A stretch of 63,917 nt of DNA from an uncultured virus (IMG/VR IMGVR_UViG_2695420475_000004) (lineage: Duplodnaviria; Heunggongvirae; Uroviricota; Caudoviricetes), in the IMG/VR virus record IMGVR_UViG_2695420475_000004; one strand, given 5' to 3'. The notes below the pieces were generated by a model, which saw nothing but the letters and a program-made list of their open reading frames with translations, ran no database searches and had not been told where the DNA came from. Position 1 is the stretch's first letter. The number at the start of each line of letters is the position of its first letter. The translations under genes were made by a program, and so were the position numbers. Shown here piece by piece: positions 880-33,968 of this stretch.

Positions 880-1443
880 TTACTCTTGAGTCTCGGTGCA
901 TACCGTGAACCGGCGCACGGTATGAGTGTAGCCACCCGAAGGACAACCGGATGTGTCAGTTGCACTAGTGAGGATTTTTGTAGCCTTTTCCCGTTTGTCA
1001 GCTGATTTATCTGCGCAGGCGACCTTCTGCGGGATTGGTGTGATCATGCTAATGCAGGTCTGTTCATCCCAGTTGTAGTCAAGGCACGCAGTGTATTCGC
1101 GTCCTTGGAAGTTCCGGTAATAACGGCGATCAACGTCCTGAACGCACTCATTTGGAGTATTAGCAACCTGCATTATTCGGTAGTTGGCTTTAAAGTTACT
1201 GCAGTCCAATCGCTCAAATGTAGGATTGGCTGGCGTTCCTGCTAGCTGTCCGCAAGTTCCCACATCAGCACTCGTAGTATTCGCAGTGCGCACCTCGAAA
1301 CCTGAAAGTATCGAAAAGAACGTGTCGTTCTTGGCCCCGGTAGTGGTGGTGGTAGTGGTAGTACACGCCACCACCAGTAATCCGATCACGGCACCGCATA
1401 CAACCAATGCAGTCCTTGCAGAATTTTTTACACCTAAACGCAT
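880..1443 (-). CDS. LppU-like Cys-rich lipoprotein (third gene of Q-rich cassette A); start uncertain (1443-1488)
   Basis: Lipobox LLVVAC; ECVQDVDRRYY...ACLDYNW...RFTVCTE; clear paralog of 33420..33968. Confidence 0.75.
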   Translation of the reverse strand: MRLGVKNSARTALVVCGAVIGLLVVACTTTTTTTTGAKNDTFFSILSGFEVRTANTTSADVGTCGQLAGTPANPTFERLDCSNFKANYRIMQVANTPNECVQDVDRRYYRNFQGREYTACLDYNWDEQTCISMITPIPQKVACADKSADKREKATKILTSATDTSGCPSGGYTHTVRRFTVCTETQE

Positions 1444-1468
1444 AATTGTGTTCGCGCTCTCCAGCTTG

Positions 1469-2053
1469 TTATGCGGCATTGAGGTCAAGGTAATCTTTCA
1501 TGACATCGCAGTCTGGGCCCAGGTCGGCCGCTGACGAGTGATTCAGCGAGCGAACCCCGACCACCCAAGCGTCGTCGCGCCACACTGGATCATTCTTGGG
1601 GAAGTATCTGAGCATCACCTTGCCGGGCTTAGCCGTAGAGAAACAGGCTGCGTCCACGGTCCACGAATCGTCCAGATTCATCACTTCCTTCGCGTTCGGA
1701 TCAGCTGTCCATCCGCCCACTTCGGAAAGAGTGACCTTCAACCTGCCTGAATTCAGAAGGCGAACAGCGTCCCCCCGGCTCTGCATAACCAGCTGTTCCC
1801 GGCGCACTGTCCCTGGCTGTGAAGCTAGGTCCCAACGGGCCGTGGGGGTCGAGACAGGCCCTTGCGTAACCTTCCACGCGGGTTGGGCTGAATCCGTAGC
1901 GACAGGTTTGATGAGTTCCTCGTTATGCCTAATCCAGCTCGACCGTGCCACGCAGTAGCCAATCAGCGCCACACACAGCACCGCCGCCAACGCGATACTG
2001 ATAATCACACGTTCACGAACACGAGTCTTCACTTGAAATGCTCCTATGGGCAT
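1469..2053 (-). CDS. Membrane-anchored protein, putative partner/immunity protein of cassette A
   Basis: One N-terminal TM segment (VIISIALAAVLCVALIGYCVA); overlaps the stop of the upstream gene. Confidence 0.6.
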   Translation of the reverse strand: MPIGAFQVKTRVRERVIISIALAAVLCVALIGYCVARSSWIRHNEELIKPVATDSAQPAWKVTQGPVSTPTARWDLASQPGTVRREQLVMQSRGDAVRLLNSGRLKVTLSEVGGWTADPNAKEVMNLDDSWTVDAACFSTAKPGKVMLRYFPKNDPVWRDDAWVVGVRSLNHSSAADLGPDCDVMKDYLDLNAA

Positions 2054-31444: not shown

Positions 31445-32917
31445 ATGTTTCCCATGGCCTCCGGGGACCTCGATTCAGGCAACCACTACAAGGCATACTG
31501 GTGCCGTGTACTGCAACACCAGCCGGACAAGCCGGTAGTTCAGCGCGCACGTCAGCGGGTCCGTGCCGCACTGGTCGCGGTCGCAGTCCTCGCGGTTGGG
31601 GCTGGCACCGTTCAGGTCGCGACGATGCACACGGCCCCGGGGAGTGGCTTCTCCACGCTGGCGACGGTGGGCGCGGAACCGACCGGCCCGCCGGGACCGA
31701 CCGGCGGCATGACCGACGGTGGGGGTTCTCAGTTTCAGCCTCCCGGCTTGCCGCCGTCGATGCCGGACTACCAGGGCGGTAACAACTTACCGCCTCTGGA
31801 TCAGAACTCGGGCATCTCAATTTACAATTCCGGCAATCCGCAAGCGCCACAGCAGGTTCCGGGTCAGCAGGGCGGGCAGCAGCCGCAGCAGAGCTGGGAT
31901 CAGCCCGCGCACGGTACCCAGATGCCCAATTACTCCACGGCGCCGGGGTACACCCAGGGGCCGGGTAAGCCGAACCCTGATTATCAAGCGCCGCAGCAGA
32001 GTTCACCTCAGCAGGGTCAACAGTCTCCACAACAGGGGCAGCAACAGCAGCAGTCTCCGCAACAGAGTCAAGAGCAGCAGAATCAACCCGAGCAACAGCA
32101 GCAGGAGCAGCAGGACCAGGGTGACCAGCAGCGGCAGCAGCGCTGCCAGGCGATGTCGCAGCAGATGGATCAGCTCACCGAAACTGCGGGGCAGGTCGCT
32201 GACGTCGTGCAGCAGGTTGGGGACGCAGTCGACCAGGTAGTGCCCAAGCCCAAGGGCGGCGGTGGATCCTTGGGGCCCGATGGTGAGCGCTCACCGGGGC
32301 GGGTGCCGACCCAGCCGCTCGAGTGTGGCGATTGCCCGCCGGATCGTAAGCCGCAGAATCCGCTGTGCAAGCTCATCCCCAATGCGGCAGCCAAGAAAGT
32401 GTGCAAGGACTACATCGATCCTTGGATGGACAACTTTTCCGATGAGTGCAAGACCGGAGAGCCGGGATGCAAGGGCCGGGTGCCGATCTGTTACCCCAAG
32501 GATGTCACCAACCCCACCCAATTCCAGATAGATGGCATGAGGGACTACATAAACGGCGGAAATCGCCTGATTCGCAAGAATGAGGACGCCGGCGGCATGG
32601 TGATCAAACGAACGACCAGCGGCATGGACACCCGCCGAAAAGATGACATTAAGAGGGCAATAGCTATCTTTGGCGAAGAAGCTTTTAACGGTAAAGCGCC
32701 GGGTCACATGCCAGATTTAACATGGGGCGGAACAAAGTTCGATGACCGTCAAGTGCTCCCCATGGATATTGCTCTCAATCAATCCATCGGTGGTCAATCG
32801 AACTATTACCGCCGATTCAAGGAAGGGTTCCAGGTGACAGAGTTCGTAGAGGGGATTTGGGCCGTGCCGTCCTATTCCAACAAACTCCAGTGCCTCGAAA
32901 AGGGACCTACCGCATGA
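31445..32917 (+). CDS. Gln/Pro-rich secreted protein with C-terminal HNH-like nuclease domain (cassette C)
   Basis: Conserved N-terminus; C-terminal GHMPDLTWGG...MDIALNQSIGGQ resembles His-Me-finger toxin nucleases. Confidence 0.72.
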   Translation: MFPMASGDLDSGNHYKAYWCRVLQHQPDKPVVQRARQRVRAALVAVAVLAVGAGTVQVATMHTAPGSGFSTLATVGAEPTGPPGPTGGMTDGGGSQFQPPGLPPSMPDYQGGNNLPPLDQNSGISIYNSGNPQAPQQVPGQQGGQQPQQSWDQPAHGTQMPNYSTAPGYTQGPGKPNPDYQAPQQSSPQQGQQSPQQGQQQQQSPQQSQEQQNQPEQQQQEQQDQGDQQRQQRCQAMSQQMDQLTETAGQVADVVQQVGDAVDQVVPKPKGGGGSLGPDGERSPGRVPTQPLECGDCPPDRKPQNPLCKLIPNAAAKKVCKDYIDPWMDNFSDECKTGEPGCKGRVPICYPKDVTNPTQFQIDGMRDYINGGNRLIRKNEDAGGMVIKRTTSGMDTRRKDDIKRAIAIFGEEAFNGKAPGHMPDLTWGGTKFDDRQVLPMDIALNQSIGGQSNYYRRFKEGFQVTEFVEGIWAVPSYSNKLQCLEKGPTA

Positions 32918-33423
32918 TTGCCCACCTTCGCGAAAGGTTCAGTGGGCGCGTGGCTGCGGTTGGTGTGGCCTGGGTTGCCACGATTGCCATCGCCTCGCTG
33001 CTGACCTATGTTCTGTGCATGCAGCACCCCAGTGCGACATCGGATAAATACGACGCAGAAGTACGCCAGGTGATCGAGCAATACATTGACGCATTAAATG
33101 CCGGTGACCTGAAGCGACTAGAGTCACTTTCCACTGGTATAGCCGAGGAACATCTCAACCCATCTTTCAAAGGTGGGTACGTCCAGGATATGGCGTCGGA
33201 GATGCTGGACCATGGCCCCATGCATATAGTCGATTTCGGCATTCTGGCGCGAGGTGATCTGGTCTACGACGCGTTCGTGTACACAGAATTCGAGGATCAG
33301 AAAAACGCGAAACCGGAGAACATCTACTACTACACCGGGGCGCGGGTCCGATACAGCATGTACCGACTCAACGGGCAATGGAAAGTCATGAGCGTAGAGA
33401 CGTTCAGGGCTGACGCCAAGTGA
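32914..33423 (+). CDS. Membrane-anchored NTF2-like partner protein
   Basis: One TM segment; EVRQVIEQYIDALNAGD...RLNGQWKV. Confidence 0.68.
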   Translation: MIAHLRERFSGRVAAVGVAWVATIAIASLLTYVLCMQHPSATSDKYDAEVRQVIEQYIDALNAGDLKRLESLSTGIAEEHLNPSFKGGYVQDMASEMLDHGPMHIVDFGILARGDLVYDAFVYTEFEDQKNAKPENIYYYTGARVRYSMYRLNGQWKVMSVETFRADAK

Positions 33424-33968
33424 AACGAGCCAGCGCCCTGGCGGTGATTATGGCGTTGTCAGCAATGGTGCTATCGGGATGCCAGACCTCCACCGAAGCG
33501 CCGAACGCCGAAGCCAACTTCGCGCAGATCCCCGGACAGTTCCCCACCCCGGCCACCACGACAGCAGCGGGAGCAGAGGATGCGCCCGTAGGCGCGTGCG
33601 TCAAGATCACCGGCCCGCGCCGCGACGCTGCGATGAAGCTGACAAAGTGCGACGGACCGGACGCTACCCACAAGATCGTCCAACGCGTCACCGAGCCGAA
33701 AGACTGTGTCCGCGACGTTGATCGGCGCTACTACCGCAACACCGCCGCCGGCGAATGGACCGCATGCCTGGACCTGAACTGGACCAACACTCGCTGTCTG
33801 AGCATCAGCGACGACGAGACACGGGCTGTGGCATGCGACGACACCGCGGCAGTCGATCGTTTCCGGCCAACCAGGGTGGTCCTCGGAGCCAGGACCGCCG
33901 ACGTGTGTCCGGTCGGATATCCGCACCCGGTCCGCATGTTCACCATCTGTACAGAATCAGTGCGCTGA
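33420..33968 (+). CDS. LppU-like lipoprotein
   Basis: Lipobox VLSGC; DCVRDVDRRYY...ACLDLNW. Confidence 0.78.
   Translation: MKRASALAVIMALSAMVLSGCQTSTEAPNAEANFAQIPGQFPTPATTTAAGAEDAPVGACVKITGPRRDAAMKLTKCDGPDATHKIVQRVTEPKDCVRDVDRRYYRNTAAGEWTACLDLNWTNTRCLSISDDETRAVACDDTAAVDRFRPTRVVLGARTADVCPVGYPHPVRMFTICTESVR

What the first reader, a model, noticed from the sequence alone, without database searches (positions are those of the whole stretch)
880..33968. Recurring three-gene cassette: Gln-rich secreted carrier with swapped C-terminal domain + variable membrane partner + LppU-like lipoprotein (candidate non-ESX polymorphic effector system)
Seen in sequence: the same translationally coupled architecture occurs at 880-3420 (minus) and 31445-33968 (plus), with a gap-truncated copy at 28433. 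The large proteins share a hydrophobic leader and a close N-terminus (TAPGSGFS..PTGPPGPTGGM..SQFQPP..MPDYQGGNN.PPLDQN.G.SIYNSG..PAHGTQMP.Y..YTQGPGK.NPDYQAPQQ). Both then have a poly-Q linker and a junction motif (PGRDGGVVECEGC vs PGRVPTQPLECGDC). After that they are unrelated. Gene 2 is also unrelated between loci, while gene 3 is conserved (CV.DVDRRYY..ACLD.NW). Established: a conserved N-terminus, variable tip and co-varying downstream gene is the polymorphic toxin signature. Inference: with no WxG motif, this may be a Sec-exported family distinct from ESX-secreted phage toxins, with the lipoprotein as a surface anchor or chaperone. Caveat: a membrane-anchored partner is an odd immunity protein for a nuclease.
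Basis: partly seen in the sequence, partly recalled or inferred. Interest (0 to 1): 0.88.

Follow-up and report, generated by a model that had tools for sequence, protein, structure and literature searches.

The report
Non-ESX polymorphic toxin cassettes, Mycobacteroides prophage
Two gene cassettes in a Mycobacteroides prophage belong to a large, so far undescribed family of exported proteins with a shared stalk, swappable toxin-like tips and matching partner genes, most likely weapons and shields used between rival bacteria.

Summary
Two cassettes (880-3420 minus; 31445-33968 plus) and a gap-truncated third copy (28433-29442) encode proteins with a hydrophobic leader and a P/Q-rich domain that is 79% identical. 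Their C-termini are unrelated, gene 2 is unrelated, and gene 3 is an LppU/SCO3897-type lipoprotein (35% identical).

I tabulated 63 loci: 52 from nine Mycobacteroides-type genomes, 9 from prophage records and 2 from the window.
- They fall into 38 tip clusters.
- 15 of 48 relatives scanned carry Pfam domains above cut-off, including Tox-REase-5/7, GH-E, Endonuclea_NS_2, an ADP-ribosyltransferase, amidases and GH19.
- The first downstream gene co-varies with the tip: 39 of 46 same-tip pairs share it, against 6 of 1665 different-tip pairs. It includes Imm52 and YezG-like proteins.
- None has a WXG100 domain.

The family has two forms: 45 with a single hydrophobic leader and 18 with a polytopic membrane domain. 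The lipoprotein gene follows 28 of 45 single-leader genes and 0 of 18 polytopic ones.

The B tip models as a NucB-like nuclease fold (Z 6.5). The A tip is unidentified.

Published RNA-seq reports lysogenic expression of McProf gp48-50, which I identify here as a homologous cassette.

Verdict: a polymorphic toxin-immunity family outside the described ESX-dependent PEST cassettes. Export route, delivery and the lipoprotein's role are untested.

The parts
2044..3420 (-). A1: gene 1 of cassette A (458-aa ORF, probable start at 3375). It has a leader, a P/Q-rich domain, a poly-Q linker, a Cys junction and a unique tip.
   Evidence: phrog_35557 over the N-terminal 249 aa; P0014, 443 aa
3304..3354 (-). 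A1 hydrophobic leader (about 17 residues, preceded by Arg-Arg)
   Evidence: hydropathy scan; sequence
2938..3294 (-). A1 conserved P/Q-rich domain (residues 43-161)
2047..2748 (-). A1 variable tip (234 aa, P0016). Fold not identified.
   Evidence: (3 relatives)
1469..2053 (-). A2: gene 2 of cassette A. It has an N-terminal membrane anchor and an outside domain of cluster D12.
880..1443 (-). A3: LppU/SCO3897-type lipoprotein (lipobox LVVAC)
   Evidence: NF049863 42.4 bits against cut-off 25; NF049864 109.5 against 135
28433..29442 (+). Truncated B1-like copy, cut by the N run at 29443-29451
31445..32917 (+). B1: gene 1 of cassette B (490 aa)
   Evidence: (phrog_30921, full length)
31556..31606 (+). 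B1 hydrophobic leader. It follows a conserved N-terminal extension of about 35 aa.
31628..31984 (+). B1 conserved P/Q-rich domain (residues 62-180). The model predicts it to be disordered.
   Evidence: pLDDT 19-36 for residues 1-330
32129..32344 (+). B1 junction: Q-R-C helix, Gly run, PGR...EC-G-D-C
32450..32905 (+). B1 tip with a NucB-like beta-beta-alpha-metal nuclease fold. Invariant residues include H421, D424, D433, R435, D441, N445 and N453, plus 8 invariant Cys in the C-terminal half.
32914..33423 (+). B2: gene 2 of cassette B. It has an N-terminal membrane anchor and an outside domain with weak NTF2-like signals.
   Evidence: (phrog_29120)
33420..33968 (+). B3: LppU/SCO3897-type lipoprotein
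   Evidence: (phrog_21858)
34386..35098 (+). Duplicate of the end of B2 and of B3 (B3 copy at 34550-35098) behind a single N. Probably an unmerged scaffold overlap.
   Evidence: 97% identity in protein

Best explanation
Each cassette is a polymorphic toxin-immunity module of a family restricted, as far as seen, to the Mycobacteroides (M. abscessus-chelonae) group and its prophages.

Gene 1. This is an exported protein. A hydrophobic N-terminal leader takes it across, or anchors it in, the cytoplasmic membrane. A conserved but disordered P/Q-rich stretch plus a poly-Q run acts as a stalk. The C-terminal tip is the active, interchangeable part. The B tip is most likely a disulfide-stabilised NucB-like metal nuclease. 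The activity of the A tip is unknown.

Gene 2. This is the cognate partner, tethered to the outer face of the membrane. It most likely binds and neutralises the tip where the tip folds or arrives.

Gene 3. This is a specialised paralogue of the LppU lipoprotein. It works in the envelope together with gene 2 and with the single-leader form of gene 1, either as part of the protective module or as a docking or release factor.

What is shown and what is inferred. The modular anatomy, the co-variation, the toxin and immunity domains in relatives, and lysogenic expression of one homologous cassette are shown. The export route, tethering as opposed to release, the target cell and the lipoprotein's role are inferred.
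For: Homology of the stalk:
- A1 and B1 are 79% identical over 121 aa, E 8e-36.
- The domain occurs in 24 Mycobacterium prophage records.
- It occurs in 52 loci of nine genomes, 4 to 7 per genome.
- It occurs in 851 protein clusters at E <= 0.001 among 8000 scored candidates. Every one of the best 120 that a source names is from Mycobacteroides, Mycobacterium sp. D16R24 or phage McProf.

Polymorphism:
- There are 38 tip clusters in 63 loci.
- 15 of 48 relatives scanned have a C-terminal Pfam domain above cut-off. These are Tox-REase-5 (2), Tox-REase-7, Endonuclea_NS_2, GH-E, ADPrib_exo_Tox, Amidase_2, Amidase_6, Glyco_hydro_19, Abhydrolase_8, Peptidase_C2 and DUF6973 (3).
- One more locus has a phospholipase A2 tip.

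Co-variation:
- 39 of 46 same-tip pairs share the first downstream gene cluster, against 6 of 1665 different-tip pairs. None of 5000 label shuffles reached this.
- The downstream genes include Imm52 (E 3e-16) beside Tox-REase-5 and a YezG-like protein beside Endonuclea_NS_2.
- One tip-plus-partner pair (T7 with D26) occurs behind both N-terminal forms, and partner D18 likewise follows tips behind both forms (T8 short, T22 long). This is module shuffling.

Location outside the cytoplasm:
- Gene 1 has a hydrophobic leader.
- 8 Cys are invariant in the B1 C-terminal half and 8 in the lipoprotein.
- Gene 2 has an N-terminal hydrophobic segment or lipobox in most single-leader loci.

B tip fold:
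- Model residues 335-487 have pLDDT of about 80-88.
- The Foldseek top three hits are all NucB (E 0.04-0.17, TM to target 0.51-0.54).
- VIA-align's best chain is NucB 6ejs_A (Z 6.5, rmsd 3.2 A, 104 of 109 residues). It is the only chain of 48161 with Z >= 5.

Lipoprotein link:
- It follows 28 of 45 single-leader genes and 0 of 18 polytopic ones (Fisher p 2e-6).
- In five genomes, 15 of 16 strong LppU-like copies lie directly downstream of a stalk-domain gene, and each genome has one weaker copy.
- Fused membrane-plus-LppU proteins are the only partner gene in L006, L020 and L065.

Expression:
- McProf gp50 is a family member.
- Cushman et al. 2021 report moderate lysogenic expression of gp48-50, with function unknown (PMC8191103, section 13, passage read).
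Against: - Neither tip of the window matches a toxin family by sequence.
- The NucB match is of middling strength. The tool's own note says a best Z of 7-8 is typical for models without a clear match.
- The A tip model is poor (mean pLDDT 52) and has no fold match.
- A membrane-tethered partner on the outer face is unusual for a nuclease. In this family the relatives with recognised nuclease domains mostly have partners without a hydrophobic start.
- The loci are related to one another, so the pair counts overstate the number of independent events.
- No toxicity, binding, secretion or competition data exist for any member.
- 17 of 45 single-leader genes lack the lipoprotein, so it cannot be required for export in general.
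- The split into single-leader and polytopic forms rests on a crude hydropathy scan of my own.
Confidence: 0.7

Rival explanations
1. The cassettes are lysogenic-conversion genes that put an enzyme on the lysogen's own surface. Possible uses are cutting extracellular DNA, remodelling the envelope, or excluding other phages. Gene 2 would be a regulator or inhibitor that keeps the enzyme in check, and no other bacterium would be attacked.
For: - All three proteins of each cassette are predicted to sit outside the cytoplasmic membrane.
- NucB, the best fold match of the B tip, is a secreted nuclease and not an interbacterial toxin.
- Many tips in relatives are envelope enzymes: amidases, GH19, an esterase-type hydrolase, phospholipase A2.
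- A homologous cassette is expressed in lysogeny (PMC8191103, section 13).
Against: - The same stalk carries Tox-REase-5/7, GH-E, Endonuclea_NS_2 and an ADP-ribosyltransferase. These sit beside Imm52 and YezG-like genes, a combination typical of toxin-immunity pairs.
- Extreme tip diversity with a co-varying partner is not expected of a housekeeping surface enzyme.
Confidence: 0.17
2. Gene 1 proteins are accessory lysis enzymes of the prophage. They would be held in the membrane by a weakly hydrophobic, Ala/Gly-rich anchor, as in signal-anchor-release endolysins, and freed at lysis. Genes 2 and 3 would be their membrane partners.
For: - The leader is short and rich in Ala, Gly and Val.
- Several tips in relatives are cell-wall hydrolases.
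- In prophiGD12-2 the cassette lies next to the holin and lysin genes.
Against: - The prophiGD12-2 record, the one flank where I saw lysis genes, already has lysin A, lysin B and a holin of its own.
- Nuclease, ADP-ribosyltransferase and restriction-fold tips have no place in lysis.
- The McProf cassette is expressed in lysogeny, not only after induction (PMC8191103, section 13).
- 18 loci have a polytopic anchor that could not be released that way.
Confidence: 0.05
3. The recurrence is an artefact. The similarity would be chance resemblance of low-complexity P/Q-rich sequence, or a duplication created by scaffolding.
For: - The window has two duplications flanking N runs.
- The shared domain is compositionally biased.
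Against: - Identity is 79% over 121 aa at E 8e-36 with composition-adjusted statistics.
- 39 columns are invariant across nine sequences.
- Cassettes A and B lie 28 kb apart on opposite strands and have different tips.
- The same architecture is present in 24 prophage records and 52 genome loci.
- Only the 28433 copy and the 34386-35514 repeat are suspect.
Confidence: 0.01

Closest known systems
PEST cassettes (phage-encoded ESX-secreted toxins) of M. abscessus prophages (Dedrick et al. 2021, PMC8092301; Abad et al. 2023, PMC10654092)
   Same: Both are prophage-borne in the same hosts. Both have a large protein with a conserved N-terminus, a variable C-terminal toxin and a co-varying downstream immunity gene. 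Both are expressed in lysogeny. Some of the same prophage records carry both kinds: prophiGD12-2, prophiGD43A-5, prophiGD57-1 and McProf (and the papers).
   Different: PEST toxins are defined by an N-terminal WXG100 domain and a small WXG100 partner gene, and they lie next to an attachment junction. Here no WXG100 domain is found. The N-terminus is a hydrophobic leader or a polytopic membrane domain followed by a P/Q-rich stalk. The third gene is a lipoprotein. The stalk domain matched only one to three places per prophage record, and none of the nine places whose annotation I read is a toxin or WXG100 gene.
S8-PTS of Gram-positive bacteria (PMC9424270; abstract and passages read)
   Same: Both are three-component polymorphic toxin systems without a specialised secretion machine. 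Each has a signal-peptide toxin with a conserved N-terminal domain and swappable tips, an immunity gene and one conserved accessory gene.
   Different: The S8-PTS N-terminal domain is BetaH and its accessory is an S8 peptidase. Here the domain is a disordered P/Q-rich stalk and the accessory is an LppU-type lipoprotein. No peptidase family was found in A2, A3, B2 or B3.
EatA/EatI of M. abscessus (PMC13444075, 2026; passages read)
   Same: This is an inter-mycobacterial toxin acting on the envelope, with a lipoprotein immunity protein that binds it. The paper notes that envelope-targeting toxins pair with lipoprotein or membrane-anchored immunity.
   Different: EatA is exported by ESX-4 with two helper proteins. 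It has no sequence relation to the genes here.
NucB / NucA extracellular nucleases of Bacillus (PDB 6ejs, 5omt, 9fj7)
   Same: This is the best and only clear fold match of the B tip. It is a small secreted beta-beta-alpha-metal nuclease. From recall, NucA is membrane-bound and has an adjacent inhibitor gene, nin.
   Different: Sequence identity is 14-17%. There is no Pfam or PDB sequence match. The B tip has extra disulfide-forming Cys and sits on a long stalk.
LppU (Rv2784c) / SCO3897 lipoprotein family
   Same: A3 and B3 pass the NCBIfam domain model NF049863 and sit among LppU clusters in the protein atlas at 0.95.
   Different: They score below the equivalog cut-off (109.5 and 101 against 135). 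In five genomes, 15 of the 16 copies scoring >= 167 bits against the cassette-derived model lie next to toxin genes. The single weaker copy per genome (109-116 bits) is presumably the housekeeping one. In the search listing for 'LppU', the only mycobacterial titles among the 15 papers shown (of 28 found) were a BCG biofilm transcriptome and a PNPase structure paper, and neither is about LppU.

Membership tests
Polymorphic toxin systems (as defined by Zhang et al. 2012; definition recalled) | Conserved N-terminal trafficking region joined to many alternative C-terminal domains | tested here: met
   38 tip clusters in 63 loci behind one stalk domain
Polymorphic toxin systems | C-terminal domains belong to toxin families | tested here: inconclusive
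   Met in relatives: 15 of 48 have Pfam domains above cut-off, including Tox-REase-5/7, GH-E, Endonuclea_NS_2 and ADPrib_exo_Tox. For the window's own tips there is only a NucB-like fold for B (Z 6.5) and nothing for A.
Polymorphic toxin systems | Cognate immunity gene immediately downstream, co-varying with the tip | tested here: met
   39 of 46 same-tip pairs against 6 of 1665 different-tip pairs. Imm52 and YezG-like proteins occur in relatives. The loci are related, so the events are fewer than the pairs.
Polymorphic toxin systems | Toxicity of the tip and specific neutralisation by the partner | not testable with these tools
No bench data exist.
PEST / ESX-secreted WXG100 toxins | N-terminal WXG100-like domain in the toxin | tested here: not met
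   No WXG100 Pfam hit in A1 or B1 at E <= 0.1, nor in 48 relatives at E <= 0.001. No W-x-G lies ahead of the stalk in the single-leader forms.
PEST / ESX-secreted WXG100 toxins | Small WXG100 partner gene beside the toxin gene | not tested
   Small ORFs upstream of A1 and B1 were not scanned. The downstream genes are a membrane protein and a lipoprotein.
LppU lipoprotein (NCBIfam NF049864 equivalog; NF049863 domain) | Score above the curated cut-off | tested here: met
   The domain model NF049863 is passed (42.4 and 40.3 bits against 25). The equivalog NF049864 is not (109.5 and 101 against 135). They are members of the wider family, not orthologues of LppU.
NucA/NucB DNase family | Sequence or fold match with the beta-beta-alpha-metal core and catalytic residues | tested here: inconclusive
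   No sequence match. Fold match is Z 6.5, 104 of 109 residues. The invariant H421 lies at the end of a strand and N445 at the start of the helix. The residue-by-residue match to NucB's active site was not checked.
S8-PTS | Adjacent S8 peptidase gene | tested here: not met
   No peptidase family in A2, A3, B2 or B3. The BetaH domain itself could not be tested because no profile was held.
Beta-barrel pore-forming toxins (considered for the A tip) | Aerolysin- or monalysin-like fold with an amphipathic insertion hairpin | tested here: inconclusive
   The only signal is an atlas lead, 'putative Monalysin', at 0.76. There is no Pfam hit and no fold match on a poor model. The beta hydrophobic moment was reached by 649 of 1000 shuffles.

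The most novel reading that the evidence does not exclude
Mycobacteroides and its prophages have a second toxin-delivery family that is independent of ESX. A conserved, disordered P/Q-rich stalk is rooted in the cytoplasmic membrane. The root is either a single anchor working with a dedicated LppU-type lipoprotein or a built-in polytopic domain. The stalk carries interchangeable toxins through the thick mycobacterial envelope to neighbouring cells. This would be a mycobacterial counterpart of contact-dependent inhibition, and the lipoprotein would be a new kind of envelope accessory or co-immunity factor.
Probability: 0.3. Interest if true: 0.85.

Novelty: new variant of a known kind. Interest (0 to 1): 0.72.

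Why it matters
Interbacterial toxin warfare in mycobacteria was first shown experimentally only in 2026, according to that paper's abstract (PMC13444075), and so far only ESX-dependent toxins have been described in M. abscessus prophages. This family would add a large ESX-independent arsenal: at least 38 tip types, 4 to 7 loci per genome, and hundreds of protein clusters all annotated as hypothetical. It bears on strain competition, prophage-conferred fitness and possibly phage therapy of M. abscessus. It also offers a function for the uncharacterised LppU lipoprotein family, a set of new toxin and immunity folds, and an explanation for the lysogenically expressed McProf genes gp48-50, whose role was left open.

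Tried and rejected
Sequence-family searches
- Pfam, NCBIfam and PDB sequence searches gave nothing for A1, A2, B1 or the tips.
- The polytopic N-terminal domain of the long forms has no Pfam or NCBIfam match, even at E <= 1.

A tip
- Only three relatives were found among 1.84 billion representatives.
- The AlphaFold model is poor (mean pLDDT 52).
- Foldseek and VIA-align found nothing above background.
- My idea of a beta pore-former has no support beyond an atlas lead at 0.76. The amphipathic-strand test was at chance: 649 of 1000 shuffles reached the observed value.

Binding and structure
- The LppU profile found no solved structure.

Expression
- No RNA holder was listed.
- Four RNA runs with the same species label were laid on the B cassette. 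Three had no reads. One had 18 reads, each fitting only part of the stalk domain at 90-95% likeness, so they come from a relative. This is no test of this cassette.

Promoters and terminators
- Counts around both cassettes were no higher than in shuffled sequence: 3 against 1.4 +/- 1.0, and 2 against 1.3 +/- 1.2.

Other
- The window's own assembly is not held. The nearest record, G001, was used instead.
- Earlier findings of this scan: none.
- Whether the leader is a cleaved Sec signal, a Tat signal (an Arg-Arg pair precedes it in most single-leader forms) or a permanent anchor could not be decided, because no signal-peptide predictor was available.

Full report
**1. The observation**

- Cassette A lies on the minus strand: A1 at 2044-3420, A2 at 1469-2104 and A3 at 880-1488.
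- Cassette B lies on the plus strand: B1 at 31445-32917, B2 at 32857-33423 and B3 at 33420-33968.
- A1 and B1 share 96 of 121 residues (79%, E 8e-36). The match is confined to A1 residues 43-161 and B1 residues 62-180, and nothing aligns after that.
- A3 and B3 are 35% identical (E 1e-33).
- A2 and B2 are unrelated.
- At the gene junctions, B1/B2 overlap as ATGA and B2/B3 as GTGA. The A2 start lies 8 nt inside A1. A2 and A3 are separated by 23 nt that include GGAGAG.

The copy at 28433 ends at a run of nine N (29443-29451). It is 96% identical in DNA to the start of B1.

It is 98.8% identical across a single N and creates a second copy of gene 3. I read it as an unmerged scaffold overlap.

An independent viral contig, G001, is collinear with the window and breaks inside the 28433 copy. 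That fits a real repeat in the sample.

The whole window is phage-like.

**2. What the six proteins are by themselves**

- None of the six has a Pfam family above cut-off.
- PHROGs holds all but A2 as families of unknown function. B1 is phrog_30921, the A1 N-terminus is phrog_35557, B2 is phrog_29120, and A3 and B3 are phrog_21858.
- A3 and B3 pass the NCBIfam LppU/SCO3897 domain model but not the LppU equivalog. The protein atlas places B3 among LppU clusters at 0.95.
- B2 gives only weak NTF2-like signals: DUF4440 at E 0.03, the Rv0361 C-terminal model below cut-off, and ketosteroid isomerase at E 0.043 in the PDB.

**3. The family**

Where the stalk domain occurs:
- It is in 24 prophage records of M. 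abscessus and M. chelonae.
- A pattern-plus-tblastn scan of one genome per species found 52 loci in nine genomes. All nine are Mycobacteroides or unnamed 'Mycobacterium sp.' isolates and one MAG, with 4 to 7 loci each.
- A profile search among longer proteins gave 851 clusters at E <= 0.001 among 8000 scored candidates. Of the best 120, every one that a source names is from Mycobacteroides, Mycobacterium sp. D16R24 or phage McProf. Almost all are labelled hypothetical or uncharacterised, and three have enzyme-type names.

I analysed 63 loci: 52 from genomes, 9 from prophage records and 2 from the window. By a simple hydropathy scan of my own, 45 have one hydrophobic leader before the stalk and 18 have four to seven hydrophobic segments.

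Tips:
- The last 180 residues fall into 38 clusters.
- I scanned 48 genome-locus proteins against Pfam. L028, L041, L057 and L062 were left out as truncated or short.
- 15 of the 48 have a C-terminal domain above the gathering score. These are Tox-REase-5 (2), Tox-REase-7, Endonuclea_NS_2, GH-E, ADPrib_exo_Tox, Amidase_2, Amidase_6, Glyco_hydro_19, Abhydrolase_8, Peptidase_C2 and DUF6973 (3).
- Three more have weak metzincin matches below cut-off. In the prophiGD12-2 record these are annotated as a metallopeptidase with an inhibitor gene.
- A locus that the pattern scan missed (L065) has a phospholipase A2 tip.

**4. Co-variation of tip and partner**

- A first downstream gene could be called for 59 of the 63 loci.
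- 39 of 46 same-tip pairs share its cluster, against 6 of 1665 different-tip pairs. None of 5000 label shuffles reached this.
- The loci are related, so the number of independent events is smaller than the number of pairs.
- Shuffling is nevertheless visible. The tip-plus-partner set T7/D26 occurs behind both N-terminal forms, and partner D18 follows tips behind both forms (T8 short, T22 long). Conversely, N-terminal regions that are 93% identical (L005 and L007) carry different tips and partners.
- Partners in relatives include Imm52 (E 3e-16) beside Tox-REase-5 and a YezG-like protein beside Endonuclea_NS_2.
- Partners of relatives with recognised nuclease domains mostly lack a hydrophobic start. 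Partners of envelope-enzyme tips are lipoproteins or membrane-anchored. The 2026 EatA/EatI paper describes the same rule (PMC13444075, passages).

**5. The two tips of the window**

B tip:
- It has 13 relatives, all with the same stalk.
- Their alignment shows eight invariant Cys in the C-terminal half and the motif GH-x-PD...D-x-R...P-x-D..LN-x-SIGGQ-x-N.
- In the AlphaFold model only residues 335-487 are confident (pLDDT about 80-88). The stalk is predicted to be disordered.
- Foldseek's top three hits are NucB entries (E 0.04-0.17).
- VIA-align's best chain is NucB 6ejs_A (Z 6.5, rmsd 3.2 A, 104 of 109 residues). It is the only chain with Z >= 5.
- H421 ends a strand and N445 starts the helix, as expected for a beta-beta-alpha-metal nuclease.
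- This is a fold-level lead of moderate strength, not membership of the NucA/NucB family.

A tip:
- It has three relatives in 1.84 billion representatives.
- The model is poor and there is no fold or family match.
- My pore-former idea found no support.
- Its partner A2 belongs to cluster D12. The other members of D12 are lipoproteins next to a different but similarly built tip type.

**6. The lipoprotein**

- An HMM built from seven cassette lipoproteins finds a copy on the same strand within 2.6 kb downstream of 28 of 45 single-leader genes and 0 of 18 polytopic genes (Fisher p 2e-6).
- In five whole genomes there are 16 strong copies (167-288 bits), 5 weak ones (109-116 bits, one per genome, presumably the housekeeping LppU) and one short fragment (37 bits).
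- By coordinates, 14 of the strong copies lie in loci already found. One more lies behind the phospholipase gene missed by the scan. One is an orphan.
- The lipoprotein is itself variable. Median identity is 73% within a tip type and 45% between types, while the stalk stays at 84% and 73%. Some subtypes are shared by several tip types: T4/T7/T8/T16, and T2/T37.
- In L006, L020 and L065 a multi-pass membrane segment is fused to the LppU domain, and this fusion is the only partner gene.
- Together these results tie the lipoprotein to the single-leader form and to gene 2. They do not decide between a protective role and a docking or release role. Because 17 of 45 single-leader genes lack it, it is not a general export requirement.

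**7. Literature**

- The prophage toxin cassettes described by the Hatfull laboratory all carry WXG100 domains and a WXG100 partner (PMC8092301, section 11 read; PMC10654092, passages read). The words 'lipoprotein' and 'membrane protein' do not occur in the main text of the second paper.
- Cushman et al. 2021 report that McProf gp48-50 are moderately expressed in lysogeny and of unknown function, and that gp48 and gp49 have membrane domains (PMC8191103, section 13). Here gp50 is shown to be a family member.
- The S8-PTS paper gives a precedent for a Sec-type three-component polymorphic toxin system (PMC9424270).
- Searches for 'LppU', for abscessus with prophage and polymorphic toxin, and for abscessus with immunity protein, toxin, signal peptide and lipoprotein turned up no description of this family. 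Supplements of these papers were not read and could list the genes.

**8. Reading**

The family-level evidence for a polymorphic toxin-immunity system is strong. The evidence that it is not ESX-dependent is the lack of a WXG100 domain and the presence of membrane-targeting N-termini.

For the two cassettes in the window the assignment rests on membership of that family, a moderate nuclease-fold match for B, and nothing yet for A.

Still to be shown:
- How a membrane-rooted or Sec-exported toxin would reach another cell through two mycobacterial envelopes.
- Why a nuclease-like tip has an outward-facing partner. One possibility is that a disulfide-dependent tip can only be active outside the cytoplasm, so it is neutralised there on arrival.
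- What the lipoprotein does.

Noticed in passing
window 28344-29451 and 33256-35514: There are two duplications beside N runs. Positions 28344-29442 are 96% identical to 31356-32439, followed by N x9. Positions 33256-34384 are 98.8% identical to 34386-35514 across a single N. The second looks like an unmerged contig overlap. The window is a scaffold of at least three contigs.
   Followed up: partly
loci L009, L030, L031, L039-L046, L049, L050, L053, L058, L060-L063: These are the long forms of the family (723-1220 aa where complete). A domain of 4-7 predicted membrane segments, with no Pfam or NCBIfam match, precedes the P/Q stalk. They carry the recognised nuclease tips and never have the lipoprotein gene.
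   Followed up: partly
window 29618-30085 and 30082-30507 (minus): Two adjacent DUF5994 genes (PF19457, E 9e-35 and 6e-24) lie between the truncated copy and cassette B. Their function is unknown.
   Followed up: no
window 35280-36152 (plus): An ORF with a C-terminal CDGP domain (PF24238, E 9e-12) lies just after the duplicated lipoprotein gene.
   Followed up: no
window 3974-4279 and 4346-5374 (plus): A C-terminal fragment of a tyrosine integrase sits directly before a full-length integrase, next to cassette A. This may be a remnant of an earlier integration or a junction between two elements.
   Followed up: no
locus L064 4370-6140: This is the one strong LppU-like copy without a stalk-domain gene. 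It follows a gene with a weak SUKH-1 (SMI1_KNR4) immunity-family signal (E 0.008, below cut-off). It may be an orphan immunity island.
   Followed up: partly
locus L035 6650-7363: The partner gene beside an Abhydrolase_8 tip is an LppA-family lipoprotein (PF16708, E 1e-27), a family described as confined to pathogenic mycobacteria. This hints that LppA proteins may be immunity proteins.
   Followed up: no
window 880-3420 and 32450-33423: The tips and partner genes have lower G+C than the window (0.62): 0.50 for A3, 0.53 for the B1 tip, 0.545 for B2, 0.55 for the A1 tip and 0.58 for A2. The stalk region of A1 is 0.62. This is consistent with imported, shuffled modules.
   Followed up: partly
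window 14188-17516 (minus): A PAPS-reductase-like gene (phrog_2302) lies between two ParB-like genes. A 69% direct repeat (16412-16672 against 17086-17346) lies in the same stretch.
   Followed up: no
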